This document shows, piece by piece, positions 1 through 51,095 of a DNA stretch of 64,000 nucleotides; the stretch's first letter is position 1, and every line of letters starts with the position of its first letter. The stretch covers positions 140,976-204,975 of the forward strand of contig RPGP01000029.1 in the NCBI GenBank assembly GCA_004193555.1. Reading direction: 5' to 3'. The DNA comes from Desulfobacteraceae bacterium Eth-SRB1 (GTDB lineage Bacteria; Desulfobacterota; Desulfobacteria; Desulfobacterales; ETH-SRB1). The notes beneath the pieces were generated by a model. The model had not been told where the DNA came from. It saw only the letters and a program-made list of their open reading frames with translations, and did not search any database. The position numbers and the translations under genes were made by a program.

Positions 1-59
1 ATATCTACGCTCCTTTCATCGCTCCGGATAACGACACACCAACAAGGAAAATACAATGA
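1..59 (+). pseudogene. 3' end of an upstream ORF whose last residues (IYAPFIAPDNDTPTRKIQ*) duplicate HsdR residues about 24-38
   Basis: nt 1-47 align by eye to 1147-1193 (YIYAPSIAPDSETPER in hsdR). Its TGA (57-59) overlaps the rhuM ATG as ATGA. Confidence 0.4.
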
Positions 60-1084
60 AAAACAATTTGCCTGCTAAACAGTCAAACTTCCTTCTCTAC
101 ACAGGAAACGATGGGAAGGTGAATGTTGAAGTCTTTCTTAAAGACGAAACGGTTTGGCTTACGCAAAAGGCTATGGGCTTACTTTTTGGCGTTGAAAGCC
201 ACACGATCACCTATCATTTAAAAGAGATTTTCAGGTCAGGTGAACTTGATGAAAAAGCAACTACTCGAAAAATTCGAGCAGTTCAAAATGAAGGTAAAAG
301 GCAGGTAACAAGAAAACTTGATTTCTACAACCTCGATGCCATCATTTCGGTCGGTTACCGCGTCAACTCTTACCAGGCCACGCAGTTTCGCATCTGGGCT
401 ACCAGAACCCTGAAAGAATTCATCATCAAAGGGTTTGTTTTGGATGATGAGCGGCTCAAACAGGGCAATCAGGTTTTCGGTAAAGATTATTTTGATGAAC
501 TGTTGGAGCGTATACGGGAAATCCGAGCCAGTGAGCGACGCTTTTATCAAAAGATTACCGACATATATGCTCTCTCGGCTGATTATGATAAAAACGCGCT
601 TATTACCAAAGAGTTTTTTGCCACAGTTCAAAACAAGCTGCATTGGGCCATAACTGGAAAAACGGCTGCTGAAATCATTTATGATTCAGCAGATGCGACT
701 AAAATTTACATGGGTCTGACCAACTGGAAACATGCGCCGGACGATAAAATCTTAAAATCCGATGTTGCCGTTGCCAAAAATTACCTGAACAAAGCCCACA
801 TCAAGGAACTTAATCAGATCGTCTCAGCTTATCTTGATTTGGCGGAAAACAGAGCACAGCGGCAGATTTTGATGAAAATGACGGACTGGATTGAATTTCT
901 GCACAACTTTTTGGAATTGTCTAAGTATCCTATCTTACAGGACAAGGGTAAAGTCAGCGCATTGGAGGCCAGACTCAAAGCTGAACAGGAATATGAGGAG
1001 TACCGTATCGGGCAGGATAAAGACTATCTCTCTGATTTTGACAAAGAAATAAGGCGTATTACAGGCAAAAAAGATGGAAGATAA
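56..1084 (+). CDS. rhuM: RhuM-family protein
   Basis: N-terminal LLYTGNDGKVNVEV...ETVWLTQKAMGLLFG and YNLDAIISVGYRVNSYQATQFRIWATRTLKEFIIKGFVLDDERLKQG are typical of the RhuM family, which is often embedded in type I R-M loci. Confidence 0.85.
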   Translation: MKNNLPAKQSNFLLYTGNDGKVNVEVFLKDETVWLTQKAMGLLFGVESHTITYHLKEIFRSGELDEKATTRKIRAVQNEGKRQVTRKLDFYNLDAIISVGYRVNSYQATQFRIWATRTLKEFIIKGFVLDDERLKQGNQVFGKDYFDELLERIREIRASERRFYQKITDIYALSADYDKNALITKEFFATVQNKLHWAITGKTAAEIIYDSADATKIYMGLTNWKHAPDDKILKSDVAVAKNYLNKAHIKELNQIVSAYLDLAENRAQRQILMKMTDWIEFLHNFLELSKYPILQDKGKVSALEARLKAEQEYEEYRIGQDKDYLSDFDKEIRRITGKKDGR

Positions 1085-4000
1085 AATAACTGAAAATGCT
1101 ATTGAAAAATTTGCTATCGAACTCCTTGAAAAGCAGGGCTACCAATACATCTACGCCCCTTCCATCGCCCCGGACAGCGAGACACCGGAAAGAGAATCCT
1201 TTGAAGATGTGCTGCTCATGGAGCGATTGCAAACAGCCGTCGGCAGGATCAACCCGTCTATTCCAGCGGATATCCGGGAAGACGCTATCAAGCAGATTCT
1301 AAGGCTTAATTCACCGGAACTCATTGCTAACAATGAAGCATTTCACCGAATGCTGACAGAGGGAATAAAAGTCACTTATCAAAAAGACTGGGCCAGCCGG
1401 GGTGATCTGGTCTGGCTCATTGATTTCAAAAATCCGGAAAATAATGATTTTGTCGTTGCCAACCAATTCACCGTTATTGAAAACAATGTAAACAAACGGC
1501 CAGATGTAGTTCTTTTTGTGAACGGCCTGCCTCTGGTTGTTATTGAACTTAAAAATCCGGCTGATGAAAACGCAACCATAAGATCGGCATTCAAACAACT
1601 GCAAACATATAAACAGGAAATCCCCAGCCTGTTTATCTATAACGGCTTTATGATTATTTCCGATGGCTTGGAAGCAAAAGCCGGTTCTATTTCTGCTGGT
1701 TTAACCCGTTTTATGGCATGGAAAACATCGGACGGCAAAGTAGAAGCATCCCCATTGATCGGACGAGTGGAAACCCTGATAAAGGGAATGCTAAACAAAG
1801 AAACGCTTTTGGACGTCATCCGTCATTTTGTTGTGTTTGAAAGGTCAACAAAGTTGACTCCCTCCCTCAATCCCTCCCAGCGGGAGGGAAGCCATTATCG
1901 TGGTGGAATGAATTTCACCGGTATGATAAAACAAGTCAGAGATTTACGAAAAAATCAGACTGAAGCGGAAAGTATTTTTTGGGAGCTGGTGAGAAACAAA
2001 AAGTTCTTCGGATTGAAGTTTAGACGACAACATCAAATTGGACACTACATTGTTGATTTTTACTGTCACTCGGAGAAGTTGATAATTGAGTTAGATGGTG
2101 AAGTTCATAATATTCAGGAACAAAAGAACAAAGACGAGAAAAGGGATAAGTATCTGAAAAGTCTCGGCAATAGAATGTTGAGATTTAAAAATACAGAATT
2201 ATTTGAGAATACAGAAAATGTGCTGAAAACAATTGAAAAAAACCTCTCTCCCTCTGGGAGAGACGGAAGAGAGGGTGGTATAACGACAGTTACTACCATC
2301 AAAAAACTGGCTGCCTATCATCAATATTATGCTGTAAACAGAGCTGTTGAATCTACGTTAAGAGCCGCTGAATATTTGCCTGTGCAGAAAAAAACACAGC
2401 GGGAACAAATAGCGGAATCCCCTGAAAGTTATGGCCTGCCGGGTGTAAAAAAACAGCCTTCAGGAGACCGGAAAGGCGGCGTGGTATGGCACACTCAAGG
2501 AAGCGGCAAATCGCTTTCCATGGTTTTTTATACTGGAAAGATTGTCCTGGTAATGGATAACCCCACGGTTCTGGTCATTACCGACAGAAACGATCTGGAC
2601 GATCAGTTGTTTGATACCTTTGCCGCATCAAAACAACTGCTCAGGCAGGAACCGGTGCAGGCGGAAGACAGAGGCCACTTGAAGGAGCTGCTCAAAGTCG
2701 CATCTGGCGGAGTGGTGTTTACCACCATCCAGAAATTCCAACCCGATGAAGGCAATGTTTATGAAACCCTTTCGGAAAGAAGAAACATCATTGTCATTGC
2801 CGATGAAGCCCACCGGACTCAGTATGGTTTTAAAGCCAAGACCATTGATGCCAAAGATGAAAACGGCAATATTGTCGGTAAAAAAATTGTGTACGGTTTT
2901 GCCAAGTATCTGCGGGATGCGCTACCGAACGCTACTTATCTTGGCTTTACCGGAACGCCCATTGAAAGCACCGATGTTAACACCCCGGCTGTATTTGGCA
3001 ACTATGTTGATATTTACGATATCCTGCAAGCGGTTGATGATGGTGCAACAGTCAGAATCTTTTACGAAAGCAGACTGGCAAAGATTAACCTCAGTGAAGA
3101 AGGCAAGCAACTCATCAAAGATTTTGATGAGTTACCCCTCTCCCAACCTCTCCCAGAGGAAGAGGAGAGTTTGCTCCCTTCTCCTTCTGGGGGAAGGGCT
3201 GGGGATGGGGGTTTTGTTTCCAACAAAATCAAGGCCAAATGGACACAATTAGAAGCGCTCATCGGCAGTGAAGACCGGATAAAACAGGTTGCTCAAGATA
3301 TTATCAATCATTTTGAGCAGCGTCAGGAAGTTTTTGAAGGCAAGGCCATGATTGTTGCCATGTCCCGCCGGATCGCCGCCGATTTATACAAGGAAATCAT
3401 CAGCATCAGACCGCAATGGCATAACGACGATCTGAAAAAGGGCGTCATTAAAGTGGTAATGACATCCGCATCCTCTGATGGCCCTGAAATTTCCAAACAT
3501 TACACTACCAAAGATCAACGCAGAGCATTGGCCGACAGGATGAAAGACCCTGAAGATGAACTCAAACTGGTCATTGTCCGGGATATGTGGCTGACCGGTT
3601 TTGATGTGCCTTGCATGCACACTCTTTACATAGACAAACCCATGAAAGGCCATAATCTGATGCAGGCCATTGCGCGGATCAATCGCGTCTATAAGGATAA
3701 ACCCGGCGGGCTTGTGGTAGATTATCTTGGCATTGCGTCAGACCTTAAAAAAGCGTTGTCGTTTTATTCGGACAGCGGAGGGAAAGGCGACCCGGCAATC
3801 GCACAGGAAAAAGCGGTTCAAATGATGCTGGAGAAACTGGAAGTCGTTTCCCAGATGTTTCACGGGTTTGCCTATGAAGAATATTTCGAGGCTGACACAA
3901 GGGAAAAACTTTCTCTGATACTTGCCGCAGAAGAACATATTCTGGGCCTGGAAAACGGGAAAAAGCGATACATCAATGAGGTAAACGCCCTGTCCCGTGC

Positions 4001-4778
4001 TTTTTCCATTGCCATACCACACGAACAAGCCATGGATGTTAAAGATGAGGTCTCGTTTTTTCAGGCGGTAAAATCCCGATTGGCCAAATTTGACAGCACC
4101 GGCTTTGGCAAAACAGACGAAGAAGTTGAAACAGCGATTAGACAGGTTATTGACAAAGCATTGGTAACAGAAAAGGTTGTGGATGTTTTCGATGCCGCTG
4201 GAATCAACAAACCTGATATTTCAATACTTTCAGAAGAATTCCTTTTGGAAGTCAAAAACATGGAGCATAAAAATATTGCTCTGGAAGTTTTGAAAAAACT
4301 GCTGAATGACGAAATAAAGATGAGAACCAAAAAGAATCTGATACAAAGCAAATCCCTCATGGAAATGCTGGAAAATTCCATTAAGAAATATCACAACAAA
4401 ATTTTAACAGCAGCAGAAGTCATTGAAGAATTAATTGAATTGAGCAAAGAAATTCAGAAGATGGACAAAGAGCCTCAGGAAATGGGGCTGTCTGATTTTG
4501 AATATGCTTTTTATACGGCCATTGCCAATAACGACAGCGCTCGTGAGTTAATGGAAAAAGACAAGCTGAGGGAATTGGCAATTGTATTGTTTAAAAAGGT
4601 AAAGGCCAATGCTTCCATCGACTGGACAATCAAGGAAAGCGTAAAAGCAAAATTAAAGGTCATTGTAAAAAGAACATTACGGCAGTATGGCTATCCACCG
4701 GATATGCAGAAATTGGCAACTGAAACAGTTTTAAAACAAGCTGAATTAATAGCGGAAGAAATTACACGTGGAGAATAA
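1074..4778 (+). CDS. hsdR: Type I restriction enzyme R subunit (HsdR), 1234 aa, with two in-frame insertions
   Basis: PD-(D/E)XK nuclease core DVVLFVNGLPLVVIELK; helicase motifs TQGSGKS, DEAHRTQ, GFTGTP, MWLTGFDVP, QAIARINR; KKLAAYHQYYAVNRAV linker. The start overlaps the rhuM stop. Confidence 0.92.
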   Translation: MEDKITENAIEKFAIELLEKQGYQYIYAPSIAPDSETPERESFEDVLLMERLQTAVGRINPSIPADIREDAIKQILRLNSPELIANNEAFHRMLTEGIKVTYQKDWASRGDLVWLIDFKNPENNDFVVANQFTVIENNVNKRPDVVLFVNGLPLVVIELKNPADENATIRSAFKQLQTYKQEIPSLFIYNGFMIISDGLEAKAGSISAGLTRFMAWKTSDGKVEASPLIGRVETLIKGMLNKETLLDVIRHFVVFERSTKLTPSLNPSQREGSHYRGGMNFTGMIKQVRDLRKNQTEAESIFWELVRNKKFFGLKFRRQHQIGHYIVDFYCHSEKLIIELDGEVHNIQEQKNKDEKRDKYLKSLGNRMLRFKNTELFENTENVLKTIEKNLSPSGRDGREGGITTVTTIKKLAAYHQYYAVNRAVESTLRAAEYLPVQKKTQREQIAESPESYGLPGVKKQPSGDRKGGVVWHTQGSGKSLSMVFYTGKIVLVMDNPTVLVITDRNDLDDQLFDTFAASKQLLRQEPVQAEDRGHLKELLKVASGGVVFTTIQKFQPDEGNVYETLSERRNIIVIADEAHRTQYGFKAKTIDAKDENGNIVGKKIVYGFAKYLRDALPNATYLGFTGTPIESTDVNTPAVFGNYVDIYDILQAVDDGATVRIFYESRLAKINLSEEGKQLIKDFDELPLSQPLPEEEESLLPSPSGGRAGDGGFVSNKIKAKWTQLEALIGSEDRIKQVAQDIINHFEQRQEVFEGKAMIVAMSRRIAADLYKEIISIRPQWHNDDLKKGVIKVVMTSASSDGPEISKHYTTKDQRRALADRMKDPEDELKLVIVRDMWLTGFDVPCMHTLYIDKPMKGHNLMQAIARINRVYKDKPGGLVVDYLGIASDLKKALSFYSDSGGKGDPAIAQEKAVQMMLEKLEVVSQMFHGFAYEEYFEADTREKLSLILAAEEHILGLENGKKRYINEVNALSRAFSIAIPHEQAMDVKDEVSFFQAVKSRLAKFDSTGFGKTDEEVETAIRQVIDKALVTEKVVDVFDAAGINKPDISILSEEFLLEVKNMEHKNIALEVLKKLLNDEIKMRTKKNLIQSKSLMEMLENSIKKYHNKILTAAEVIEELIELSKEIQKMDKEPQEMGLSDFEYAFYTAIANNDSARELMEKDKLRELAIVLFKKVKANASIDWTIKESVKAKLKVIVKRTLRQYGYPPDMQKLATETVLKQAELIAEEITRGE
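1857..2279 (+). mobile_element. In-frame, hairpin-flanked cassette encoding a DUF559 (Vsr-like) endonuclease domain inside hsdR
   Basis: LRKNQTEAESIFWELVRNKKFFGLKFRRQHQIGHYIVDFYCHSEKLIIELDGEVH...RDKYLKSLGNRMLRFKN matches DUF559. It is flanked by hairpins tccctccc-agc-gggaggga (1871-1889) and ctctccc-tct-gggagag (2246-2262). It interrupts the HsdR nuclease-helicase linker. Boundaries are approximate. Confidence 0.7.
3133..3213 (+). repeat. Solo-end (endonuclease-less) derivative of the same cassette, in frame in hsdR (about 27 codons, PLSQPLPEEEESLLPSPSGGRAGDGGF)
   Basis: ctctcccaacctctcccagaggaagaggagag plus ctcccttctccttctgggggaagggctggggatgggg resemble the left and right ends of the 1857-2279 cassette placed side by side. 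Confidence 0.6.
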
Positions 4779-8683: not shown

Positions 8684-8820
8684 AGGTTGTTAGGCTGTAG
8701 GCTGAAGGCTGTAGGATATCTCTCAAACATCAAAAGTCGAATTTGGGAATAGTGTGCTTGAATGGCTATGCTATATTATTGGGTTTTGTGAGTTTTTTCC
8801 CTAAAAGCCTTCAGCCTGTC
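8684..8820. repeat. Nested palindromic word-repeat element (arms built of aggctgt/aggctga words)
   Basis: Left arm aggttgttaggctgtaggctgaaggctgtagg, right arm cctaaaagccttcagcctgtc. Same family as 62964-63155. Confidence 0.75.
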
Positions 8821-11800
8821 TAACTGAGTAGTTTGGCTGAGTAGTTTGGCTGAGTAGTTTGGCCGGACTTGAACGCATTGATAAGCGAATCATCTATTAT
8901 GGCTTCGTAACCGGTTAACAGGGCAACAACGACATTGTCTTGATCAAGGAAAGTAAAATCGCATTTCATTTTATGTCTGGTTGTTTTCTTTACCTCAAGT
9001 ACCGCTGTGACCCCATCTGATGGAAAATCATTTCTATATTGTCGATAAGAGGCTGTATAGCTGGGGAGTGAAACTGCCCCTGTTTTTTCAAAGGACCATA
9101 TAATCGCCATCTGAAAGGCGCAGTCGAGGACAAGCGGATCTGTCAGCCATTTACTTCTCAGTGGATTTGATATCCATTTTGCTGGTTGAGGAGCTGATGA
9201 AATCCTGGCTGCCATTTTATTGGATGAATAATATATTATCTCTTTGATTCCGCGAAGCTCGGCGCCGTGGAATAGTATTTTTTCGTATATTTCTTCAATG
9301 CTCATGGGGAAAGGTTTTGAATCGATGTCATCCAATCCGCTGAAAACCGGCGGCTGAGCAGGTCTATCAGTCAAAATAGCCTTTGCCCTGGAGTGAATCA
9401 TCTCTACTCCATCCTTAATGCCGTTTCTAATTTCAACATCTACTTCAAAAATCGAACCTTTTTTTCTGGATTTTCCTGCCATGAGACGGATCATCTTTTT
9501 GTTGTTATTAAGCTTGATCCCGCTTAAGATCCGCATGTCATCAAGACCATGGAAGAAAAGACCCGGGTTTTCATGAAGGGCTCCATGCCCCAGCCATTCT
9601 GTTATGAGAGCAAAAGGCACAACAGGTTTTCCGTCAAGTATATGAGATTCAAGAACAGGGTAACTGTTAATATCAATTTCACATTTTGCGGTAAGTGAAA
9701 GATTTTTTTTTGTATCGGAAAGCGAGACCTGTTTTCCTCCTGAAATAAGCTTTTTTGCAGGCATTATATTCGCGCCCATAACAACTTCTACAGGAGAGCT
9801 TTTATCTCCCATCATCTCATAGAGCATACACATGGCTCCTGAATCTAAGGGGATCAGCTCAATTTTGCTGCGGGCAAATTCTCGTTTCAGGGCAGATGAT
9901 ACCATGCCTCCATCCCATGGCCCCCAGTTTATGGAAATCACTTTGCAATCAGGCCTGACAATCGATTCATACCGGGCAATCTTGTTTAAAACCTCATTAG
10001 CCATGGCATAGTCAGCCTGCCCCCTGTTTCCAAATCTCGCTGTTATAGATGAAAAAAGGACAATATATTTTAGCTTATCCTGTTTTGTCGCCTCAAGAAG
10101 TGTTTTAAGCCCTTTAACCTTTGTATCGAACACCATTTCAAACTGCTTCAAAGTTTTTTCAACTATAAGCCGGTCTTTAAGGGTTCCGGCACCATGAATA
10201 ACACCCTTAATCGGGCCATGGTTTGATCTGACATTATCAAGGATCGATTTAACCATGTCAGAATCACGAATATCAACAGAATAATAGAGTACGGTTGAGC
10301 CGGTTTCTTCAAGCTTAACAATGTTTCCTGTAATTTCACGATTCGCCATATGATTTTTGTATGATTTTTCCAACTGAACCGGAGATGCATGATTTCCGCT
10401 GAATTCGTTTTTTAGGATTGCTTTTTTAATGGCAGGCTCATCATTTATGGTTGCGAGCCATTCCGGTTCGGGAGACGGATTTGGAGATCGTCCAAGCAGA
10501 ACAAGGGTCGGCTTCGAGTGCTTTGCAAGGGCAAGAGCCGAAGCAGCGGTAACACCTCTTGCGCCTCCGGTTATAACAACGACATCATTCTGGTTGAGGT
10601 CGATTTTTCCATGGTGATAAGGAGAAGGTTCAAGCTCAAGCATTAATCTTGAATCAGGGTTCAGTCCCGTTTCAACAGGAGCTGAAAGATCAGGATTTAA
10701 AAGTTCATATACAACGGCTTTTGCTATCTCTTTATTATTTTTCCAGTCCGGCGATATGTCTATGGCATGACAGTTGACCTTTTCCCATTCAATCGAGGCT
10801 GTTTTTGCAAGGCCTGCAAGACCGCCCTGCAAAGGATTAAAAATGTTCTTGCCTTTAAAACCGAAAGCGCCGTCAAGGGAGGTGATTGTTGTAAATACTG
10901 CTCCGCCTTTTTCTGCGGAATCAAGAAGTTCCACTGCAACACGGCTTGTAAGCTCAAAGGCCTTTTTCAGGAATGCGTCATCAGGCAAATTCGCCCTGTT
11001 GTTCTGGGAATAATCAGCTCCAATCATTTTACTGTCAGGAAGAATTATGAGCCCTCCTGCCGGTGGCAGATCTTTTTTGTTTTTTAATATATCGTTTGAA
11101 ATAACAGATGCATCGATATTAAAGGATGCCAGCTCTCTGGCAATTGCCTTTGAAAGGCCTGCTCTGTCGTCAGTAATTAATACTTTTCTCCCATTGGGAA
11201 TACTTAATTTGTTGTCATAGTGAAGCGGTTTTTCAGATAGAGATACGACTCTTTTATCTATTTTAACGGCTGTTTTTTCATCTGTTTTATTTTTAGATAA
11301 AACTTTTTCATTCTGTTTTTTATGCGCATCGCCATTATCAGATCCCGTGAGATATTCAGCGATCTGCCCTAATGTTTTAAAGTTGCCCATGATTTCCGGC
11401 GAAACAGAAGGCAGGTCAGGCATCTTTTCCTCAAGAGCAGAGAGTATTTCCACCCTTTTGATTGAATCTATGCCCAAATCCGATTCAATATCCATGTCAA
11501 GCTCAAGCATCTCAACAGGATACCCTGTAAGCCGGCTGACTACTTCGAGCATTTCGTTTTGTATTTTTTGACCGGTTTGAGAGGCATGCTCCCGGGGCGC
11601 ACTTTCTTGTATTTTCTTTTCTTTTGGTCTGGATTGGGGCTCTTTTTTTTCAGATCCGGTTAAATATTCAGCGATTTGCCCCAATGTTTTGAGGCTGCCC
11701 ATGATTTCCGGCGAAACAGAAGGCAGGTCGGGCATCTTTTCTTCAAGTGTGGAGAGTATTTCCACCCTTTTGATTGAATCTATGCCTAAATCCGACTCAA

Positions 11801-14800
11801 TATCCATATCGAGTTCCAGCATTTCTACAGGATACCCTGTAAGCCGGCTGACTACCTCTAACATATTATTTTGGATTGAAGATTGCTGAACTCCGACCTC
11901 AGACTCATTTTGTTGCCGGTTGCCGGTTGCTGGTTGCTCGTTACTGGTTGCTGGATTCTGGATGTTGGTTGATTGTTGATTGTTTATTTCGGATTGCTGA
12001 CCTCTGACCTCTGACATCTGACTTCCGGTTTCCAGCTTTAAGCTTTCCGCTTTGAGCTTTGAGCTTTGAGCTTCTTCCCAGCTTCCAGTTTCCAGTTTCC
12101 AGTTTCCAGTCTTCAGCTTAAGCCCCAGTGAAACTTCTGCCAGGCGCTGTGTGTTTTCCATCATGTTTTGCAGCGCGCGATTAGCCTCTGTCTGCGTTTC
12201 CAGAAACTTTTTGTGCGCTTCGGCGGTTTGTGCCTGGAGAGCCTGTATCGACTTTAAGCCTTCCCGGGTAATCTTTAATGCATCTGCAATTAAGTTTGTG
12301 TTTTTCGTTTTGTCCCTGTTCGTATTGTTTGGGTTCGTATTGTTTGGGTTTGTATTGTCTGGGACAGTTTTGTTTTTATATGCGCTCATAGCTTTATCCG
12401 GTTTGTTGATGTGTTGAGTGTGGGCAAACTCCTCATTGGGTGGGGTTTTTGTTTGTATGCTGTTTATAACTTTTTTACTCTTTTTTTTGTTTTTTAGTAT
12501 TTGTTCCGGCTCCGTTCTGTAGTTTGCTCCAGTGATAGGTATGCTCATCAGCTGCTTCCTGGTTTCGAAAACAGGATGTTCCCATCCGGCTAATTCAACA
12601 TGGTGACCTATTGATGCGAGATGGCAAAGTGTTTTAGCGAGATCCGCCACTCCGAATTGTTTTCCTGAAGAACAGTCCATTGGAATCACATGAAAATTTT
12701 GATCTTTTAATATCGATTTTACAAGACCGGTCAGAACTCTTTTGGGCCCTATCTCTATAAATGTGCGAACACCTGTTTTGAATTGATTTTTAATTTCACT
12801 TACAAAATCCACAGGACATAAAATCTGTTTGCCAAGCAAATCTTTTGCCTTGGCCGGATCATAAGGGTATGGTTTGCCTGTTGTGTTGGAAAAAACCGGG
12901 ATGTCTGAAGGGGTTATTCCGGCTTTTTTAACGATCTTTGCAAACGGTTTTTGAGCATCTTTTACAAGATTGCTGTGAAAAGCGGCGGATACCGGCAGTT
13001 TTATTGTTTTATATCCTTTTTCTATGCATATTTTGTCTGCCCGGTCAACAGCCTCGATTGTGCCGGATAGAACTCCCTGGTCAGGGCTGTTTTTGTTTGC
13101 AAGGATAACGCCTGTATCCGTATTCTCAACAAGCTTGGCAAGTTCGTCAACCGGCGCTTTTACAGCTAACATAGCGCCATTCTGGTTTTTGTTCCGGCTC
13201 GCATCAGCCATTAAATTGCCCCGTGCGATTGAGAGGTCGAAAAGGGTATCGATGTCGATCCAGCCTGCTGCATAAAGGGCGGGCAGTTCGCCATAGCTGT
13301 GTCCGCAGACAGCATCATGTTTTACCCCAAACTTTTGAAGGGTTTTCAGCATTGACAGGCTTACAGCGCCGATGGCAGGTTGAGCAATATCGGTCCTTCT
13401 TAAAGTTTCTTCCTGAACCAGCTTTTCTTTATCGGATTGAGAGGGAAGAGGGTAGATGTATTCGCATAAGGAATATGAATTATCGTATTTTGCATTTGCA
13501 ATTTCCAGGATATCGAAAGCTTCGGGAAACCAGCAAGCAATGTCCCGGCCCATGCCGGTATATTGACTTCCCTGGCCTGGAAACATGAATCCGATTTTAC
13601 CGGCTTTTTCGGAGCCAGCATAATCGGGGCCCCCGTAAAAGATATTTTTCAGATTCCAGGCCGGTTTGCCGCTGTTTTTTTCAAGGCCATCCAATGCAGC
13701 GGTAAACAAATCGGATATTTCTTTCAAGTTGTCTGAAGACCGTTCAATAACAAGAAGGAGCCTGTGCTTATCTTTTCTTGAAAATTGTGATCTTGAGCTA
13801 AAAGCTTTTTTCGAGAATTTTTTTCCCGGCAGCCCATGTTCAATAGAGCTTTTGAGGGAGCTGAGAGCTGCGGCAAGTTCCTTTTTTGTTGAAGCAGACA
13901 GCGCAAAAATTTCAACCGAGCCGTCCCATGATATTTCAGTTTTGTTTTGCTTATATTCTTCGAGAATCACATGAAAATTGCTTCCTCCGAACCCGAAAGA
14001 GCTTACACCGGCGCGTCGCGGATGTTCTTTTTTTGAGAACCATGGTTTGGACGCTGTGCTGAGATAAAAAGGTGTTTCATTGATCTTGAGATTTGGATCA
14101 GGCTTATCGGCTTTCAAGGTGGGTGGAAGCACTTTGTTATAAAGAGATAAAGCGGTTTTTATAATGCCGGCAGCTCCGGCAGCAGCCTTGGTATGCCCGA
14201 TCATGGATTTAACCGAGCCTAATGCGCACCATTTGCCGGATTTTTTATTAGATTCGCCAAAAACCCGGCTTAAAGCCTGAAACTCAACCATGTCGCCGAC
14301 CCTGGTGCCGGTGCCGTGAGCCTCGATAAGTTCGATAGTGGACGGGTCAATACCTGCATTACTGTGTGCCATTCGGAGCGCTTTTGCCTGTCCTTCAGGT
14401 TTTGGGGCATATATGCTTTGCGCTTTGCCGTCGCTTGAAGAACCTATGCTTTTTACAACAGCATAGATTCTGTCATTATTTTTTTCCGCATCATCAAGCC
14501 TTTTTAAAACAAGTATTCCGACACCTTCCCCAAGAACTGTGCCGTCCGCATCCTTTGAAAAAGGCCTTGCATCCCCGGTTGGTGAAAGAACATGACTTTT
14601 TGAAAAGCACATATGCATGAAGATGTCGTTCAAGGTGTCAATGCCGCCCGTGAGAACTGTGTCGCTGCGACCGGATACAAGTTCCAGGACGGCGAGATGG
14701 ATTGCGCCCATTGAACTGGCGCATGCGGCATCAATAACACAGTTGGTGCCCCCCAGGTCAAGGCGGTTGCATATTCTTCCGGCTACGACGTTTCCCAGGA

Positions 14801-15356
14801 GTCCGGGAAATGAGCTTTCCTGCCAGGAAACGTATGAGTCTGATATATCTTTTATGATTTCTTCTGTTTTTTCAGGAGAGATACCTGAGTTTAAAAGAGC
14901 TTTCCGCCATTTTGGATGCCCTAACCTGGCACCCAGAGGAATAACAAGCTCCTGTGTTCCTGTTATTCCTAAAATTACGCTTGTTCTGTCTTTGTTATAT
15001 TTTTTTCCTTCTCCATAGCCTGAGTCATGAAGCGCCATTTTTGCGGCAGTCAGGCCGAAGAGCTGGGATGTGTCGGTTGCTTCAATGGAGGCTGGAGGAA
15101 TGCCGAATTCTGTTGGATCAAATGAGACAGGTGATAGAAATCCGCCCCGTTTACAGTAAACATGGTCCGGTTTTTTGGGGTCCTTATCAAAGTAATCCTC
15201 TGACAGCCAGTGTGTTTTCGGGACATCGGTAATTCCGTTTTCGCCGTGAAATATCAAACGCCAGTATTCTTTTAATTCAGACGATTTTGGAAAGAGGCAT
15301 CCGATTCCAATGATGGCAATGGGAGTATTCTGGTAAGTATTTTTATTTGATTTCAA
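8820..15356 (-). CDS. Type I polyketide / PfaA-like synthase, KS-AT-ACP-ACP-KR-DH (2178 aa)
   Basis: KS: DAACASS, HGTGT, GHT. AT: GHSYGE. Two ACPs: LGIDSIKRVEIL twice. KR Rossmann fold: VITGGARGVT. C-terminal hot-dog DH: HILDGKPVVP. Confidence 0.9.
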   Translation of the reverse strand: MKSNKNTYQNTPIAIIGIGCLFPKSSELKEYWRLIFHGENGITDVPKTHWLSEDYFDKDPKKPDHVYCKRGGFLSPVSFDPTEFGIPPASIEATDTSQLFGLTAAKMALHDSGYGEGKKYNKDRTSVILGITGTQELVIPLGARLGHPKWRKALLNSGISPEKTEEIIKDISDSYVSWQESSFPGLLGNVVAGRICNRLDLGGTNCVIDAACASSMGAIHLAVLELVSGRSDTVLTGGIDTLNDIFMHMCFSKSHVLSPTGDARPFSKDADGTVLGEGVGILVLKRLDDAEKNNDRIYAVVKSIGSSSDGKAQSIYAPKPEGQAKALRMAHSNAGIDPSTIELIEAHGTGTRVGDMVEFQALSRVFGESNKKSGKWCALGSVKSMIGHTKAAAGAAGIIKTALSLYNKVLPPTLKADKPDPNLKINETPFYLSTASKPWFSKKEHPRRAGVSSFGFGGSNFHVILEEYKQNKTEISWDGSVEIFALSASTKKELAAALSSLKSSIEHGLPGKKFSKKAFSSRSQFSRKDKHRLLLVIERSSDNLKEISDLFTAALDGLEKNSGKPAWNLKNIFYGGPDYAGSEKAGKIGFMFPGQGSQYTGMGRDIACWFPEAFDILEIANAKYDNSYSLCEYIYPLPSQSDKEKLVQEETLRRTDIAQPAIGAVSLSMLKTLQKFGVKHDAVCGHSYGELPALYAAGWIDIDTLFDLSIARGNLMADASRNKNQNGAMLAVKAPVDELAKLVENTDTGVILANKNSPDQGVLSGTIEAVDRADKICIEKGYKTIKLPVSAAFHSNLVKDAQKPFAKIVKKAGITPSDIPVFSNTTGKPYPYDPAKAKDLLGKQILCPVDFVSEIKNQFKTGVRTFIEIGPKRVLTGLVKSILKDQNFHVIPMDCSSGKQFGVADLAKTLCHLASIGHHVELAGWEHPVFETRKQLMSIPITGANYRTEPEQILKNKKKSKKVINSIQTKTPPNEEFAHTQHINKPDKAMSAYKNKTVPDNTNPNNTNPNNTNRDKTKNTNLIADALKITREGLKSIQALQAQTAEAHKKFLETQTEANRALQNMMENTQRLAEVSLGLKLKTGNWKLETGSWEEAQSSKLKAESLKLETGSQMSEVRGQQSEINNQQSTNIQNPATSNEQPATGNRQQNESEVGVQQSSIQNNMLEVVSRLTGYPVEMLELDMDIESDLGIDSIKRVEILSTLEEKMPDLPSVSPEIMGSLKTLGQIAEYLTGSEKKEPQSRPKEKKIQESAPREHASQTGQKIQNEMLEVVSRLTGYPVEMLELDMDIESDLGIDSIKRVEILSALEEKMPDLPSVSPEIMGNFKTLGQIAEYLTGSDNGDAHKKQNEKVLSKNKTDEKTAVKIDKRVVSLSEKPLHYDNKLSIPNGRKVLITDDRAGLSKAIARELASFNIDASVISNDILKNKKDLPPAGGLIILPDSKMIGADYSQNNRANLPDDAFLKKAFELTSRVAVELLDSAEKGGAVFTTITSLDGAFGFKGKNIFNPLQGGLAGLAKTASIEWEKVNCHAIDISPDWKNNKEIAKAVVYELLNPDLSAPVETGLNPDSRLMLELEPSPYHHGKIDLNQNDVVVITGGARGVTAASALALAKHSKPTLVLLGRSPNPSPEPEWLATINDEPAIKKAILKNEFSGNHASPVQLEKSYKNHMANREITGNIVKLEETGSTVLYYSVDIRDSDMVKSILDNVRSNHGPIKGVIHGAGTLKDRLIVEKTLKQFEMVFDTKVKGLKTLLEATKQDKLKYIVLFSSITARFGNRGQADYAMANEVLNKIARYESIVRPDCKVISINWGPWDGGMVSSALKREFARSKIELIPLDSGAMCMLYEMMGDKSSPVEVVMGANIMPAKKLISGGKQVSLSDTKKNLSLTAKCEIDINSYPVLESHILDGKPVVPFALITEWLGHGALHENPGLFFHGLDDMRILSGIKLNNNKKMIRLMAGKSRKKGSIFEVDVEIRNGIKDGVEMIHSRAKAILTDRPAQPPVFSGLDDIDSKPFPMSIEEIYEKILFHGAELRGIKEIIYYSSNKMAARISSAPQPAKWISNPLRSKWLTDPLVLDCAFQMAIIWSFEKTGAVSLPSYTASYRQYRNDFPSDGVTAVLEVKKTTRHKMKCDFTFLDQDNVVVALLTGYEAIIDDSLINAFKSGQTTQPNYSAKLLS
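11345..11890 (-). repeat. Tandem duplication (period about 342 nt) encoding the two ACP domains
   Basis: Near-identical blocks NEMLEVVSRLTGYPVEMLELDMDIESDLGIDSIKRVEILS(T/A)LEEKMPDLPSVSPEIMG occur twice. Confidence 0.85.
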
Positions 15357-33229: not shown

Positions 33230-34642
33230 CTATATGTCAAAGTAAAGAAAGAATTCATGTGGATGCGGACGAAGTTTAACAGGATTTACTTCGTGTTCAG
33301 TCTTGTATTCAATCCACGTATCAATAACATCCTGAGTAAAAACATCACCTTTCAGCAGGAAAGCGTTGTCTTCTTTTAAGGCGGTAAGAGCCTCTTCGAG
33401 AGAGCCCGGAGCAGATGGTATATTGGCAAGCTCTTCCGGCGGAAGGCCGTATATGTCTTTGTCTAACGGTTCACCCGGATCAATCTTGTTTTCGATGCCG
33501 TCTAATACAGCCATAAGAATAGCTGAAAAGGCCAGATAACCGTTACAGGACGGGTCAGGAGTTCTGAATTCAATCCGTTTTGCCTTTGGTGATGCAGAGT
33601 ACATCGGGATGCGGATTGCCGCGCTCCGGTTGCGGCTTGAGTAGGCCAGATTTACAGGCGCCTCAAAGCCGGGGACAAGCCGTTTATATGAGTTTGTAGT
33701 TGGATTCGTAAGCGCACAAAGCGCCCTGCAGTGTTTCAATATTCCTCCGATTCCGTAAAGAGCTTCCTGAGAAACCCCGGCATACTTATCACCTGCAAAT
33801 AAGGGCTCTCCATCTTTCCAGATGCTGATATGTGTATGCATTCCGGTGCCGTTATCTTCAAAAAGAGGTTTCGGCATAAATGTGACCGTACGATTATCCC
33901 GTTGGGCCACATTTTTCAGCACATACTTAAACCACATGAGCTGGTCACCCATTTGAACAAGCGGTTTAAAGCGCATATCAATCTCCGCCTGGCCGGCTGT
34001 TGCGACTTCATGATGCTGACATTCAACATCTATCCCCAGTTTTTCAAGTGTAAGAAGCATTTCGGTTCGAAGATCCTGGAACTTATCGGTGGGCGGAACA
34101 GGAAAGTATCCCTGTTTATGTTTGGGCTTATACCCTAAATTAGGAAATTCTTCCCTGCCGCTGTTCCAGATTCCTTCTACAGAATCAATTTCATAGAAGG
34201 ATCCGTTTGTTGAGGAATCAAAACGGACATCATCGAAGATAAAAAATTCAGCTTCAGGACCGATGTATGCTGTGTCGCCAATTCCGCTGCCTTTCAGGTA
34301 TAGTTCAGCCTTTTTAGCAATATAGCGCGGGTCGCGAGAATAAGGTTCACGAGTAAGCGGGTCGGCTATATCTCCGATAAGAACCAGAGTTGGAACCTCA
34401 AAAAATGGATCCATTTTTGCTGTTGAAGGGTCTGGTATCACAAGCATGTCGCTGGCATGAATCGGCTGCCATCCCCTGATGCTTGAACCGTCAAACCCGA
34501 AACCATCCTCAAAGCCGGACTCATTAAGTTCGCATATAGGCACGGTAAAATGCTGCCATACCCCCGGAAAGTCAAGAAATCGTAAATCAACAACCCTGGC
34601 CTCATTTTCTTTTGCCATTTCCAATACCTGTTTTGGTGTCAT
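33230..34642 (-). CDS. glnA: Glutamine synthetase type I, copy 1
   Basis: [33 protein letters not shown] and [11 protein letters not shown] motifs. Start at MTPKQ with RBS caggagat. Confidence 0.93.
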
Positions 34643-34708
34643 AATTTGAATCTCCTGATTATATAAATTGTTAAATATTTGAGTCCACTCGACCACTCAA
34701 CCACTTAA

Positions 34709-35071
<363 letters not shown>

Positions 35072-35082
35072 TCAAATTTTGA

Positions 35083-35220
35083 TAAATTCGTAAAAAGTCG
35101 AAAAGTTCTCTTTTCCATCATTCCGGCGAAAGTCCGCCAAAGCGCTCTGGCGGATAAATTCAATGCGTTCTGGATGCCGGATCAAGTCCGGCATGACGAT
35201 TTCGAGACTTTTTACGAGTT
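35083..35220. repeat. Palindromic element with tcgtaaaaagtc-type arms and inner hairpins
   Basis: aaattcgtaaaaagtcgaaa ... tttcgagactttttacgagttt. Inner hairpins tccgccaaagcgctctggcgga and gccggatcaagtccggc. Confidence 0.7.
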
Positions 35221-35330
35221 TATCATTTAAAAATAACCATGAAAAATTCATTTATCATATATTAAATTGTAAAGTTTTTTCAACATATGATATTAAAAAT
35301 TCGAAAAAGAATTTTTTTAAATAGCTTTTC

Positions 35331-35346
35331 AGCAATAGATATGCCA
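35331..35346 (-). promoter_or_regulatory. Canonical sigma54 promoter TGGCAT-atcta-TTGCT upstream of glnB copy 1
   Basis: The reverse complement of agcaatagatatgcca gives GG/GC spacing that fits TGGCAC-N5-TTGCW. Identical 18-mer to 42161-42178. Confidence 0.65.
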
Positions 35347-35792
35347 TAAAAGTGAAAAAATGGAGGTTATACAGGCTTCGGATACAGAAAATACGGATTT
35401 CAGGCCATTGCAAGGAGTGCAACGACGAAGCAGTCATTTGATAAACTCGTAAAAAGTCGAAATCCAGTCAATTTTTGATGCATTCGTAAAAAGTCAAAAA
35501 GGCGCACTTTCGTTATTTTTGGAAAGCTTGGAATAAAATAATTACAAATAGTTATCTCTGTGTTCTCTGTGCGCTCTCTGGTAAATGGTACTTTTTACGA
35601 ATTCAAAAAGGGAGGTAGCTGCTATGCTGCCCTTGTAGCAGCGCCGAACCCCATTGACAATGGGAAACAAATTGTCATTTCGAACGAATGTGAGAAATCT
35701 TAGCATTAAGTAGCGTGGGGCCTTTGTGCCCCACAGAGCATCGGGACCGTCTCCCCGACCAGACAACCAGATCATGTCCGGGAGCTTCAAAC

Positions 35793-37545: not shown

Positions 37546-37908
<363 letters not shown>

Positions 37909-51067: not shown

Positions 51068-51095
51068 GCAAAGAATTTGAAGAAGGTAAAAATTA

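What the first reader, a model, noticed from the sequence alone, without database searches (positions are those of the whole stretch)
1857..2279. Hairpin-flanked DUF559 endonuclease cassette inserted in frame inside the type I restriction gene hsdR
HsdR reads normally up to ...IRHFVVFERSTK and resumes at ...TTIKKLAAYHQYYAVNRAV. In between are about 141 codons with no stop or frameshift.

They encode a complete DUF559/Vsr-like domain (LRKNQTEAESIFWELVRNKKFFGLKFRRQHQIGHYIVDFYCHSEKLIIELDGEVH...MLRFKN). The domain is bracketed by Pro/Ser/Gly/Glu-rich peptides encoded by G/C-strand-asymmetric hairpins: tccctccc-agc-gggaggga at 1871-1889 and ctctccc-tct-gggagag at 2246-2262.

All HsdR helicase and nuclease motifs remain intact. 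This looks like a mobile, intein-less, in-frame selfish cassette, conceptually like Rickettsia palindromic elements but carrying its own nuclease. Alternatively it could be a functional domain acquisition that adds a second nuclease to a restriction enzyme. I do not know of a description of either.
Basis: partly seen in the sequence, partly recalled or inferred. Interest (0 to 1): 0.75.

Follow-up and report, generated by a model that had tools for sequence, protein, structure and literature searches.

The report
Mobile nuclease cassette inside restriction gene
A small nuclease gene bounded by inverted triplex-forming repeats sits in frame, with no splicing machinery, in a linker of a restriction enzyme; related cassettes occur in restriction-modification genes of many bacteria and some archaea, which ties together two long-unexplained features, DUF559 proteins and BoxC/triplex repeats.

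Summary
hsdR (1074-4778, +) carries 141 in-frame codons encoding a complete DUF559 (Vsr-like) nuclease domain.

The two "hairpins" are parts of larger three-block motifs: pyrimidine arm, purine arm, mirror purine block. They lie at 1860-1889 (- strand) and 2245-2275 (+ strand) and are the only two such motifs in the 64 kb window. They belong to the known BoxC/PIT/"TM" intrastrand-triplex repeat family and form inverted terminal repeats.

The closest HsdR alleles lack the cassette, and the window's backbone nests among these empty alleles. The cassette is far younger than the divergence of the host alleles: dS is 0.55 in the cassette and saturated in the backbone. A second independent acquisition shows the same right-hand tract end.

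The domain is under purifying selection (dN/dS 0.11-0.14). The ends are frozen at synonymous sites.

Related cassettes sit in frame at four or more sites in HsdR, and in HsdM, HsdS, MmeI-like enzymes and UvrA. Free-standing DUF559 genes carry the same repeats outside their ORFs. A DUF559-less miniature copy lies at 3130-3213.

Best reading: a mobile, intein-less nuclease cassette. That its own nuclease drives the mobility is inferred, not shown. I found no published description.

The parts
1074..4778 (+). Host gene: type I restriction subunit HsdR, 1234 aa, reading frame intact through both inserts
   Evidence: It maps onto EcoR124I HsdR (2W00): query aa 109-261 align to residues 117-269 and query aa 463-594 to residues 297-425.
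1843..2300 (+). Tract that differs from the nearly identical empty allele. It comprises the cassette plus about 12 nt (left) and about 27 nt (right) of co-converted flank, and it replaces 50 nt of the empty allele (KSKKEDKDTGIITIQTE).
   Evidence: DNA alignment with L003/L002 (empty) and L001/L004 (filled). The same right boundary appears in an independent acquisition (P0003 versus P0099).
1844..1858 (+). Left-junction palindrome GTCAAC-AAA-GTTGAC. In other filled alleles the equivalent position holds an 11-14 nt inverted duplication of the host flank.
   Evidence: also visible
1860..1889 (-). Left terminal repeat: a three-block triplex-type (BoxC/PIT/TM-like) motif read on the - strand, TCCCTCCC GCT GGGAGGGA TT GAGGGAGGG. 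The hairpin part is 1871-1889. It encodes PSLNPSQREG.
   Evidence: The consensus architecture is taken from PMC4666352.
1890..2244 (+). DUF559 (Vsr-like PD-(D/E)XK) nuclease module. It has a subfamily-specific N-terminal HYRGGxxFxG motif (1893-1922), and the Pfam domain covers 1932-2246.
   Evidence: Pfam. Invariant residues including D..FYC, ExDG..H and D..RD. PDB 3HRL at E=3e-29 and I-Bth0305I (3R3P) at E=1e-4. AF2 pLDDT 85-97 for aa 281-392. Foldseek TM 0.87 to 3HRL and 0.75-0.77 to 3R3P. dN/dS 0.11-0.14.
2245..2275 (+). Right terminal repeat: a three-block triplex-type motif, TCTCTCCC TCT GGGAGAGA CGGA AGAGAGGG. The third block is the exact mirror of the purine arm. It encodes LSPSGRDGREG.
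3130..3213 (+). Miniature, DUF559-less copy of the cassette: two decayed inverted triplex motifs back to back, in frame, in the loop after helicase domain 1 (aa 686-714). It replaces DDELEVGELTVTQK of other alleles.
   Evidence: In the closest relative (L001) its right half is 40/43 identical to the right end of the full cassette and retains the last ~10 nt of the DUF559 ORF. AF2 pLDDT is below 50.
56..1084 (+). Context: upstream RhuM-like gene (PADLOC candidate defence family PDC-S05), which also precedes hsdR in related loci
   Evidence: Neighbourhoods of L002 and L004.

Best explanation
The insert is a copy of a widespread mobile cassette. It consists of a DUF559 (Vsr/EDxHD-like PD-(D/E)XK) nuclease reading frame bounded by two inverted BoxC/PIT/TM-type triplex/hairpin repeats. 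The whole unit is built so that it reads through in frame with no stop codon.

It lies in the linker between the endonuclease and motor domains of HsdR. It stays in the mature protein as an autonomous domain, tethered by the Pro/Ser/Gly/Glu peptides that the repeats happen to encode.

SHOWN:
(1) The unit is discrete and is absent from the closest alleles.
(2) This allele, and independently a second lineage, acquired it laterally, with co-converted flanks of about 27 nt on the right in both cases and about 12 nt on the left in the window.
(3) The cassette is much younger than the divergence of the host alleles that carry it.
(4) The nuclease domain is under purifying selection with its conserved core residues invariant, while the repeat ends are constrained at the nucleotide level.
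(5) Related cassettes occupy four or more sites in HsdR, and sites in HsdM, HsdS, MmeI-like enzymes and a few other proteins.
(6) Internal-deletion, tandemly expanded and frameshifted derivatives exist.

INFERRED:
- The DUF559 domain is an active nuclease.
- It promotes spread of its own DNA in two ways. Between alleles, it would break the cassette-less site so that recombinational repair copies the cassette in (homing-like). Between sites and genes, rarer events would act through the repeat ends. The inverted duplications of host flank at the left junction point to a fold-back or hairpin intermediate.
For: Presence and absence. 82 of the 120 best homologues are empty and 36 are filled at the same site. 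Q and P0001 nest deep inside a clade of empty alleles, and P0003 nests in another.

Window allele. Its flanks match the empty allele L003 up to ...TTTGAAA and again from AAAAAACTGG..., whereas the cassette plus 12/27 nt of flank match filled alleles.

Age of the cassette.
- Q versus L004: backbone nucleotide identity 0.69-0.83, cassette 0.87-0.91.
- dS is 0.55 in the DUF559 core, but at least 2.1 or not computable in the backbone.
- Q versus L010: backbone dN 0.39-0.52, cassette dN 0.18.
- HsdRs only 28-56% identical to Q carry cassettes 55-76% identical to Q's.

Second acquisition. P0003 versus the empty P0099 is 0.85-0.98 identical in the backbone, with the same right boundary.

Selection. 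dN/dS of the core is 0.11-0.14. The end codons have dS 0.00-0.06 and dN/dS 0.35-1.0.

Hairpins. They occur in 66-68% of ends against 0.4% of controls, always pyrimidine arm first. There are 28 distinct left-arm and 25 distinct right-arm stem sequences, which implies compensatory change. Left loops are purine-rich and right loops pyrimidine-rich, so the ends are inverted repeats.

Three-block motifs. In embedded cassettes the third block lies outside the hairpin in 32/41 left ends and 36/38 right ends. Motif density is 1.70/kb in cassette spans against 0.12/kb elsewhere.

Free-standing genes. DUF559 genes that stand alone have the repeats outside the ORF.

Hosts and sites. All embedded cassettes in restriction-modification (RM) genes form one clade, and HsdR, HsdM and HsdS cassettes are intermixed within it.

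Derivatives. A mini-cassette that retains the 3' end of the ORF, deletion and frameshift forms L023 and L009, and tandem expansions of the ends.

Homing-endonuclease relatives. I-Bth0305I by profile (E=1e-4) and by fold (TM 0.75-0.77).

Left junction. Inverted duplications of the host flank.
Against: No activity is shown. The DUF559 module is only about 110 aa and has no separate DNA-binding domain, unlike I-Bth0305I, so recognition of a long allele-specific target is not obvious.

Spread between alleles could be ordinary homologous recombination in genes that are exchanged frequently anyway.

Site 1 cassettes are monophyletic, so much of their distribution could be one insertion followed by recombination.

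Nearly all embedded copies are in restriction-modification genes. A purely selfish element would not obviously show that bias. My sampling also started from an HsdR cassette.

I found no clear target-site duplication. No second full copy lies in the 64 kb window, and the source genome could not be found.

The trees are neighbour-joining without support values.
Confidence: 0.62

Rival explanations
1. Functional domain acquisition. The DUF559 module is an accessory nuclease that benefits restriction-modification complexes, for example as a second cutting or nicking activity tethered to any subunit. It would spread by horizontal transfer and recombination because it is selected, not because it is selfish.
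For: Hosts of embedded cassettes are overwhelmingly restriction-modification proteins: HsdR, HsdM, HsdS, MmeI-like and Eco57I-like enzymes. Insertion into any of the three type I subunits would place the domain in the same complex. The domain is under strong purifying selection with invariant core residues. Host reading frames are almost always preserved.
Against: The repeat ends are frozen at synonymous sites and keep their inverted three-block architecture. A domesticated protein domain does not need that. The same repeats flank free-standing DUF559 genes outside the ORF. The closest alleles do without the domain. Decayed, deleted and ORF-less derivatives persist in frame. Hosts also include UvrA, a SpoU methylase and a glutamine amidotransferase.
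Confidence: 0.2
2. Repeat-driven shuffling with DUF559 as passive cargo. The BoxC/TM repeats themselves are hot spots of recombination and replication slippage. They carry whatever lies between two of them from place to place, and the nuclease plays no part.
For: TM repeats are linked with local genomic instability in E. coli (PMC4666352). Tandem expansions of the cassette ends occur. The cassette-less miniature doublet in this gene and the inverted TM doublets in E. coli K-12 show that the ends can exist without the ORF. The E. coli ycjD/TM locus is a variable region.
Against: Across phyla the thing between two inverted repeats is specifically a DUF559 gene, in a fixed orientation. Motif density is 14-fold higher next to DUF559 than elsewhere in the same loci. 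The ORF is kept under purifying selection in every context. Passive cargo would be expected to vary and decay.
Confidence: 0.1
3. An ancestral domain of this HsdR lineage that has been lost repeatedly and precisely.
For: All site-1 cassettes share one junction type on the right and form one clade.
Against: Filled alleles nest within empty clades. Synonymous divergence of the cassette is far below that of the backbones that carry it. Cassette and backbone distances are incongruent. Empty alleles share a conserved loop sequence rather than deletion scars.
Confidence: 0.03
4. An assembly chimera or sequencing artefact in the window.
For: None beyond the fact that the source is unknown.
Against: Independent assemblies carry the same arrangement: L006 (97% identical cassette), L001 and many others.
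Confidence: 0.01

Closest known systems
Vsr-like 'EDxHD' homing endonucleases (I-Bth0305I; Dassa 2009 PMC2677866; Taylor 2011 PMC3239194)
   Same: The catalytic fold is the same. The profile match to 3R3P has E=1e-4 and Foldseek gives TM 0.75-0.77. Published classification places Vsr, DUF559 and DUF2726 in one PD-(D/E)XK clade together with this homing endonuclease (PMC3424549). The distribution is invasive and presence/absence polymorphic, and flanking sequence is co-converted.
   Different: This cassette sits in no intron or intein and does not lie between split inteins. It has no separate DNA-binding domain. Its motif is ExDGxxH rather than EDxHD. It remains in the host protein. It is bounded by inverted triplex repeats.
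Inteins
   Same: Both are in-frame selfish insertions in DNA-metabolism proteins that often carry a nuclease. Both are polymorphic among alleles.
   Different: There is no Hint/splicing domain, no Cys/Ser/Thr or His-Asn junction residues, and 141 aa is too small for one. The insert sits in variable linkers and loops rather than in conserved active-site motifs, as expected for an insert that is not removed.
Rickettsia palindromic elements and other in-frame MITE-like repeats (Ogata 2000, from my own knowledge; review PMC10969869 listed)
   Same: [quoted passage not shown] The miniature copy at 3130-3213 and other small inserts in this HsdR family behave in this way.
   Different: Those elements encode nothing. 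Here the full-length form carries a conserved nuclease ORF between the repeats, and there is no sequence relationship to them.
BoxC / PIT / TMECO intrastrand triplex repeats (Hoyne & Maher 2000; Holder 2015 PMC4666352)
   Same: The three-block architecture is the same: pyrimidine arm, complementary purine arm, mirror purine block. Many related cassette ends fit the E. coli consensus CCCTCNCCC N3-6 GGGNGAGGG N3 GGGNGAGGG exactly. Inverted doublets occur in both.
   Different: Those repeats are described as strictly intergenic, not associated with mobile elements and of unknown function. Here they are translated, flank a nuclease gene and behave as terminal inverted repeats. The window's own copies are sequence variants (TCTCTCCC/GGGAGAGA) of the consensus.
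REP sequences with their RAYT transposase (REPtrons/REPINs; from my own knowledge: Nunvar 2010, Bertels & Rainey 2011)
   Same: In both, a single gene is flanked by inverted copies of a short structured repeat that also occurs as gene-less singlets and doublets.
   Different: RAYT is an HUH/Y1 transposase with a known single-strand mechanism. DUF559 is a PD-(D/E)XK nuclease that cannot join DNA by itself. The RM-embedded clade also lives inside reading frames.
Free-standing DUF559 proteins (E. coli YcjD; N. gonorrhoeae NGO0050, PDB 3HRL)
   Same: It is the same domain: NF007294 at E=5e-24, 3HRL at E=3e-29 and TM 0.87. E. coli ycjD has a decayed TM over its stop codon. About 170 nt downstream there is a duplicated fragment of the gene's 3' end followed by a perfect TMECO.
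   Different: Those genes stand alone with their own start and stop. The cassette clade adds the HYRGG N-terminal extension and an open frame through both repeats.

Membership tests
DUF559 (PF04480) / YcjD-type endonuclease-like domain | Match to the family profile above the curated threshold, over the full length | tested here: met
   Pfam 120.5 bits against a cut-off of 20.6, profile positions 6-108 of 109. The NCBIfam YcjD equivalog scores 84.5 bits, below its cut-off of 218, so this is the same domain but not a YcjD orthologue.
DUF559 (PF04480) / YcjD-type endonuclease-like domain | Conserved acidic/His core residues of the Vsr-like active site | tested here: met
   D68, E79, D81, H85, D94 and D98 (cassette numbering) are invariant in 18 diverse cassettes and free-standing genes. 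They are present in all site-1 inserts listed.
EDxHD (Vsr-like) homing endonucleases | Vsr-like catalytic fold | tested here: met
   3R3P: profile E=1e-4; Foldseek TM 0.75-0.77, rmsd about 3 A.
EDxHD (Vsr-like) homing endonucleases | E-D-x-H-D signature and a bipartite enzyme with a separate DNA-binding region | tested here: not met
   The motif here is I-E-L-D-G-E-V-H. The module is about 115 aa with no further domain.
EDxHD (Vsr-like) homing endonucleases | Residence in a group I intron or intein, or between split-intein halves | tested here: not met
   No intein domain was found and no Rfam intron. The frame is continuous with the host.
EDxHD (Vsr-like) homing endonucleases | Cleaves the cassette-less allele at or near the insertion site | not testable with these tools
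   This needs enzyme assays. Indirect support comes from short co-converted flanks in two independent acquisitions.
Intein | Hint splicing domain with a nucleophilic first residue and a terminal His-Asn followed by Cys/Ser/Thr | tested here: not met
   No Hint or intein family appears among the Pfam hits. The junctions read ...STK|LTPS... and ...REGG|ITT....
BoxC / PIT / TM intrastrand triplex repeat | Three consecutive blocks: pyrimidine arm, complementary purine arm, mirror-repeat purine block, separated by short loops | tested here: met
   Window 1860-1889 (-) and 2245-2275 (+). The outer third block is present in 32/41 left ends and 36/38 right ends of embedded cassettes.
BoxC / PIT / TM intrastrand triplex repeat | E. 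coli TMECO consensus CCCTCNCCC N3-6 GGGNGAGGG N3 GGGNGAGGG | tested here: inconclusive
   The window's copies are variants and do not match strictly. 13 cassette ends in related loci match the consensus with a slightly relaxed spacer of N2-4, for example L052.
BoxC / PIT / TM intrastrand triplex repeat | Intergenic location with no association to mobile elements, as described in E. coli | tested here: not met
   Here the repeats are inside an ORF and flank a laterally transferred cassette.
BoxC / PIT / TM intrastrand triplex repeat | Forms a triplex as single-stranded DNA | not testable with these tools
   The folding tool models hairpins only. CD and NMR data exist only for the E. coli sequence (PMC4666352).
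Transposon/MITE-like element | Terminal inverted repeats | tested here: met
   For example, the L052 ends match 34/38 when one is reverse-complemented (my count from the output).
Transposon/MITE-like element | Target-site duplication | tested here: inconclusive
   No direct repeat of the host sequence is seen at site 1 or at the mini-cassette. Instead, inverted duplications of the host flank occur at the left junction.
Transposon/MITE-like element | Several copies in one genome, and non-autonomous deletion derivatives | tested here: inconclusive
   A deletion derivative lies in the same gene. There is no second full copy in the window, and the genome is not available.
Type I restriction subunit HsdR (host) | N-terminal PD-(D/E)XK nuclease, SF2 motor and C-terminal helical domain | tested here: met

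The most novel reading that the evidence does not exclude
DUF559 proteins are the missing partner of the BoxC/PIT/TM triplex repeats. They would be a nuclease that recognises these structured repeats and causes their spread and the instability around them. This would be a REP/RAYT-like partnership built on a PD-(D/E)XK nuclease. Its RM-embedded clade would then be a new class of mobile element, a 'domain transposon' that lives inside proteins without any splicing and preferentially colonises restriction-modification enzymes.
Probability: 0.35. Interest if true: 0.9.

Novelty: new variant of a known kind. Interest (0 to 1): 0.8.

Why it matters
1. It would be a way for a selfish nuclease gene to live inside an essential reading frame without an intron or intein. 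The element supplies its own linkers and chooses permissive loops.

2. It links two orphans. DUF559 is a very common domain of unknown function, with more than 25,000 representative clusters. BoxC/PIT/TM repeats have been known since the 1990s, occur in hundreds of genomes, are tied to genomic instability and have no known agent. The link gives a directly testable hypothesis, for example whether E. coli YcjD acts on TMECO repeats.

3. It shows that type I restriction enzymes in many phyla carry an extra, conserved nuclease domain. This may alter how they cut DNA and matters for annotating and exploiting these enzymes.

4. The repeats encode recognisable 'junk' peptides (PSPxGRGxGEG and similar) that appear in many predicted proteins. 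Knowing their origin helps annotation.

Tried and rejected
- Source genome: exact-protein look-up of the window's HsdR found nothing. The species-representative genome scan did not contain the source either; the best hit was 77% identical. Copy number in the genome therefore could not be measured.
- Hairpin energy versus dinucleotide shuffles was uninformative because of base composition, so I used positional and comparative statistics instead.
- Single-sequence AlphaFold of aa 1-760 was useless (pLDDT 34). The run with an alignment gave a confident DUF559 domain but poor host domains (pTM 0.37). Surface exposure therefore rests on mapping to EcoR124I, not on a model.
- Rfam: there was only a sub-threshold, both-strand match of the mini-cassette to a microRNA hairpin model, which I take as chance.
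- Internal translation start for a free nuclease: rejected. The Met in GGMNF is not conserved, and the purine arm lies 19 nt upstream of it.
- Phage origin: only 10 distant relatives were found in 2.9 million viral contigs.
- E. coli 'empty site' for ycjD: uninformative. Genomes without ycjD have a different 7-kb operon at that position.
- Literature: searches for DUF559, COG2852, PF04480, YcjD, Vsr-like plus in-frame, in-frame palindromic elements, BoxC/PIT and the repeat sequence itself found no description of the cassette or of a link between DUF559 and TM repeats. The library lacks most subscription journals.
Full report
1. THE OBSERVATION

The ORF at 1074-4778 (+) is a 1234-aa HsdR. Pfam finds the normal HsdR architecture: HSDR_N at aa 5-208, SWI2_SNF2 at 416-686, T1R_D3-like at 811-884 and T1RH-like_C at 901-1228. 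A full-length DUF559 domain lies at aa 287-391 (E=3.7e-35).

The 141 codons at 1857-2279 are open and in frame. Both reported hairpins exist, at 1871-1889 and 2245-2263. They are the only perfect 8-bp pyrimidine-arm/purine-arm hairpins with 3-nt loops in the 64 kb window, and there is no other DUF559 copy in the window.

2. EMPTY AND FILLED ALLELES

Of the 120 best homologues, 82 lack the domain (1070-1108 aa), 36 carry it at the same place and 2 carry it about 25 residues downstream. Source names for filled proteins include Brocadiaceae, Methylocaldum and Halobacteriota.

The empty site reads FEKSKK-EDRETG-IITIQTEKKLAA. The filled site reads FERSTK[LTPSLNPSQREGSHYRGG...SLSPSGRDGREGG]ITTVTTIKKLAA.

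By alignment to EcoR124I HsdR (2W00), the site falls just after residue 269, between the stretches that align to the endonuclease and motor parts. That it is the boundary between the endonuclease domain and helicase domain 1 rests on my own knowledge of the EcoR124I domain limits.

3. THE CASSETTE WAS ACQUIRED LATERALLY

In a tree of the backbone with the insert and its neighbourhood removed, the window's gene and P0001 nest deep inside a clade of empty alleles. P0003 nests inside another such clade.

At the DNA level the window matches the empty allele L003 almost base for base up to ...TTTGAAA and again from AAAAAACTGG.... The stretch 1843-2300 matches filled alleles instead. It comprises the cassette plus about 12 nt and about 27 nt of flank.

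- Against the filled allele L004, the backbone is 0.69-0.83 identical but the cassette is 0.87-0.91.
- Synonymous divergence is 0.55 in the DUF559 core. In the backbone it is 2.1 or more, or saturated.
- Cassette and backbone distances are incongruent.
- A second case behaves the same way. P0003 is 0.85-0.98 identical to the empty P0099 along the gene and 0.68-0.84 to L004. The foreign tract again ends about 27 nt right of the repeat.
- HsdRs only 28-56% identical to the window's protein carry cassettes 55-76% identical to the window's cassette. Q versus L010 has backbone dN 0.39-0.52 against cassette dN 0.18.
- A filled allele (L004) and an empty allele (L003) come from the same metagenome.

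4. WHAT THE ENDS ARE

I examined 87 DUF559 loci fetched from metagenomes and from species-representative genomes of many phyla.

- A perfect hairpin of at least 7 bp with the pyrimidine arm first occurs in 66% of left-end windows and 68% of right-end windows. At least one end has it in 85% of loci. Control windows of the same loci have it in 0.4%, and the opposite polarity is essentially absent.
- There are 28 distinct left-arm and 25 distinct right-arm stem sequences, so pairing is kept through compensatory change.
- Left loops are purine-rich (0.71) and right loops pyrimidine-rich (0.30), so the two ends are inverted copies of each other.
- Each end has a third block that is the mirror of the purine arm. 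In embedded cassettes it lies outside the hairpin, in 32/41 left ends and 36/38 right ends.
- In the window these motifs are TCCCTCCC GCT GGGAGGGA TT GAGGGAGGG (1860-1889, - strand) and TCTCTCCC TCT GGGAGAGA CGGA AGAGAGGG (2245-2275, + strand). They are the only two such motifs in 64 kb.
- Motif density is 1.70/kb in cassette spans against 0.12/kb elsewhere in the same loci.

A search of the literature with the repeat sequence itself identified this architecture as the BoxC / PIT / 'TMECO' intrastrand triplex motif, consensus CCCTCNCCC N3-6 GGGNGAGGG N3 GGGNGAGGG. It has 23 copies in E. coli K-12, including five inverted doublets, and occurs in more than 260 genomes. It forms a triplex in vitro and is associated with local genomic instability. 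It is described as always intergenic and not associated with mobile elements, and no function is known (Holder 2015, PMC4666352). That paper does not mention DUF559 or ycjD.

The ends act as nucleic acid, not as peptide. Two results show this.

- In free-standing DUF559 genes (Nitrospinae, Nitrospira, Flavobacteriaceae, Doudnabacteria) the repeats lie outside the ORF, separated from it by stop codons, in the same polarity.
- In the 23 end codons of the HsdR cassette dS is 0.00-0.06, while the adjacent core has 0.35-0.55. The ends' dN/dS is 0.35-1.0.

5. THE NUCLEASE MODULE

- The core is under purifying selection (dN/dS 0.11-0.14).
- Residues Y15, the KFRRQHQIG stretch, D68, E79, D81, H85, D94 and D98 are invariant across cassettes and free-standing relatives.
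- The profile matches PDB 3HRL (E=3e-29) and the homing endonuclease I-Bth0305I (3R3P, E=1e-4).
- With an alignment, AlphaFold gives pLDDT 85-97 for aa 281-392. The repeat-encoded peptides and the mini-cassette loop fall below 50.
- Foldseek gives TM 0.87 to 3HRL and 0.75-0.77 to I-Bth0305I.
- Published classification puts Vsr, DUF559 and DUF2726 in one PD-(D/E)XK clade together with that homing endonuclease (PMC3424549).
- There is no intein domain and there are no splice-junction residues.

6. OTHER SITES AND OTHER HOSTS

Cassettes occur in HsdR at four regions, given in cassette-less coordinates:
- about 217-232;
- 257-266, the window's site;
- 285-325, just before motif I;
- 414-426, inside helicase domain 1.

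Other hosts found:
- HsdM at two or three sites, most often at N6_Mtase profile position 235;
- HsdS;
- MmeI-like and Eco57I-like enzymes;
- UvrA;
- upstream of, and in frame with, a SpoU methylase and a glutamine amidotransferase.

Of 80 genome loci, 36 are embedded in long ORFs. Among 50%-identity representatives there are 25,643 DUF559 relatives. Of the 61 closest, 39 by my count of the table are longer than 250 aa with the domain internal.

In a tree of the cores, all RM-embedded cassettes form one clade. Site-1 cassettes are monophyletic. HsdR site-2 and site-3, HsdM and HsdS cassettes are intermixed (neighbour-joining, no support values). Phage contigs hold almost none.

7. DERIVATIVES AND JUNCTIONS

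The second Pro/Ser/Gly-rich insert in this gene (3130-3213) is two decayed inverted triplex motifs with no ORF. In the closest relative (L001) the equivalent insert is left repeat + 9 nt + right repeat. Its right half is 40/43 identical to the right end of the full cassette and includes the last ~10 nt of the DUF559 ORF. It is therefore an internal-deletion derivative. It is shared by nine homologues.

Other derivatives:
- an in-frame deletion of the cassette's 5' half (L023);
- a frameshift in the right repeat (L009);
- tandem expansions of either end (P0015, P0061, L013).

At the left junction many alleles carry an exact inverted duplication of the host flank. Examples are ATTGTTTTTGAA-loop-TTCAAAAACAA, and TTGTGTTTGAACGG-aaaa-CCGTTCAAACACAA, in which a host G/T difference is mirrored in the copy. 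The window has GTCAAC-AAA-GTTGAC. This looks like a fold-back or hairpin intermediate during insertion or repair. I found no direct target-site duplication.

8. MECHANISM

Shown:
- a discrete unit bounded by inverted repeats;
- lateral acquisition with short flanking tracts, at least twice in this gene family;
- a cassette younger than its hosts;
- a conserved nuclease;
- ends constrained at the nucleotide level;
- many sites and hosts;
- non-autonomous derivatives.

Inferred: the DUF559 domain is active and promotes the spread. Between alleles this would be a homing-like break followed by repair. Between sites it would be rarer events acting through the triplex/hairpin ends.

The repeat-encoded peptides probably double as flexible linkers (low pLDDT), which would explain why the host tolerates the insert.

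The main rival is a selected accessory nuclease for restriction-modification complexes. The host bias favours it. The conserved repeat ends, the polymorphism and the decayed copies count against it. The two readings are not mutually exclusive.

9. COMPARISON AND NOVELTY

- The cassette works most like a free-standing homing-endonuclease gene, but it is translated as part of its host.
- It resembles inteins in lifestyle but fails every defining intein feature.
- Its miniature form resembles Rickettsia palindromic elements.
- Its gene-between-inverted-repeats layout resembles REP/RAYT, with a different enzyme.
- Its ends are members, or close variants, of the described BoxC/PIT/TM repeat family.

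E. coli K-12 itself shows the association. ycjD has a decayed repeat over its stop codon. About 170 nt downstream lies a duplicated fragment of its 3' end followed by a perfect TMECO.

I found no paper describing the cassette or the link between DUF559 and TM repeats. The searchable library is incomplete, so prior description cannot be ruled out.

10. VERDICT

The feature is real, is not chance and is not ancestral. I rate it a new variant of known kinds, combining traits of a homing-endonuclease gene, an in-frame palindromic element and a repeat/enzyme pair. There is a substantial chance that it represents a distinct class of element. Interest 0.8.

Noticed in passing
window 3130-3213: A second in-frame Pro/Ser/Gly-rich insert in hsdR. 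It is a DUF559-less doublet of decayed inverted triplex motifs, shared with nine homologues. In L001 it still holds the last ~10 nt of the DUF559 ORF.
   Followed up: yes
L125/L008, L012, L015, L032 left junctions; window 1844-1858: The left cassette junction carries an 11-14 nt exact inverted duplication of the host flank. The peptides (R/Q)K(T/A)(V/I)Q(K/T)Q are the reverse-complement reading of HF(I/V)VFE. A host G/T difference is mirrored in the copy. This is a possible fold-back or hairpin-intermediate footprint.
   Followed up: partly
P0058 (HsdR homologue, 1326 aa), alignment columns 1310-1430: A small GIY-YIG nuclease domain is inserted in frame in a different loop of the same HsdR family, flanked by LPAPPPGQ... 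and ...ARQAGG. The same protein also carries the DUF559 cassette.
   Followed up: no
P0044 (site 1) versus P0079/P0102 (N-terminal loop); also P0025/P0026/P0046, P0019/P0023, P0075/P0080: Other short in-frame inserts that look like translated palindromic repeats recur in different loops of different alleles. Examples are VNGE(V/A)REGALGY at two different sites, SVGAGLRACP, PLPLGEAGVRG and SEARQAGSD. This HsdR family appears to be a hot spot for in-frame mini-elements.
   Followed up: no
L112 (E. coli K-12 NC_000913.3) 11200-11800; L123: ycjD (DUF559) has a decayed triplex motif over its stop codon, and a duplicated fragment of its 3' end followed by a perfect TMECO lies about 170 nt downstream. 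The whole ycjD/TM segment is present in about 62% of complete E. coli genomes. It sits where other phylogroups have the eefRABCD efflux operon, reported as lost at least twice (PMC12817139).
   Followed up: partly
P0015, P0016, P0018, P0020 (right end); P0061-65, P0088, L013 (left end): Cassette ends are tandemly expanded. Examples are GRDGREGGITF repeated four times, and several repeats of ERTTVQGQPSLSLSQGEGSHYR. The repeat ends are unstable.
   Followed up: partly
L023; L009: L023 has an in-frame deletion that removes the 5' half of the cassette and part of HsdR. L009 has a frameshift inside the right repeat that truncates HsdR. Both are decaying copies.
   Followed up: partly
window 56-1084: A RhuM-like gene upstream of hsdR matches the PADLOC candidate defence family PDC-S05 (E=5e-156). 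The same gene sits between hsdS and hsdR in related loci (L002, L004).
   Followed up: partly
P0244, P0245, P0273, P0275, P0314: Some representative proteins contain two or three DUF559 stretches in one polypeptide.
   Followed up: no
window 52500-55950; 33230-37845; 49895-54838: There are large inverted repeats (arms up to 110 nt, many at 100% identity) around 52.5-55.9 kb, and 300-nt direct duplications at 33.2-37.8 kb. These may be a duplicated or invertible segment or an insertion sequence.
   Followed up: no
window 8820-15356 (-); 62959-63150: The first is a 2178-aa multidomain polyketide/PUFA-synthase-like ORF with low-complexity linkers. The second is a set of TAGGCTGT-type short tandem and inverted repeats near the window's end.
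   Followed up: no
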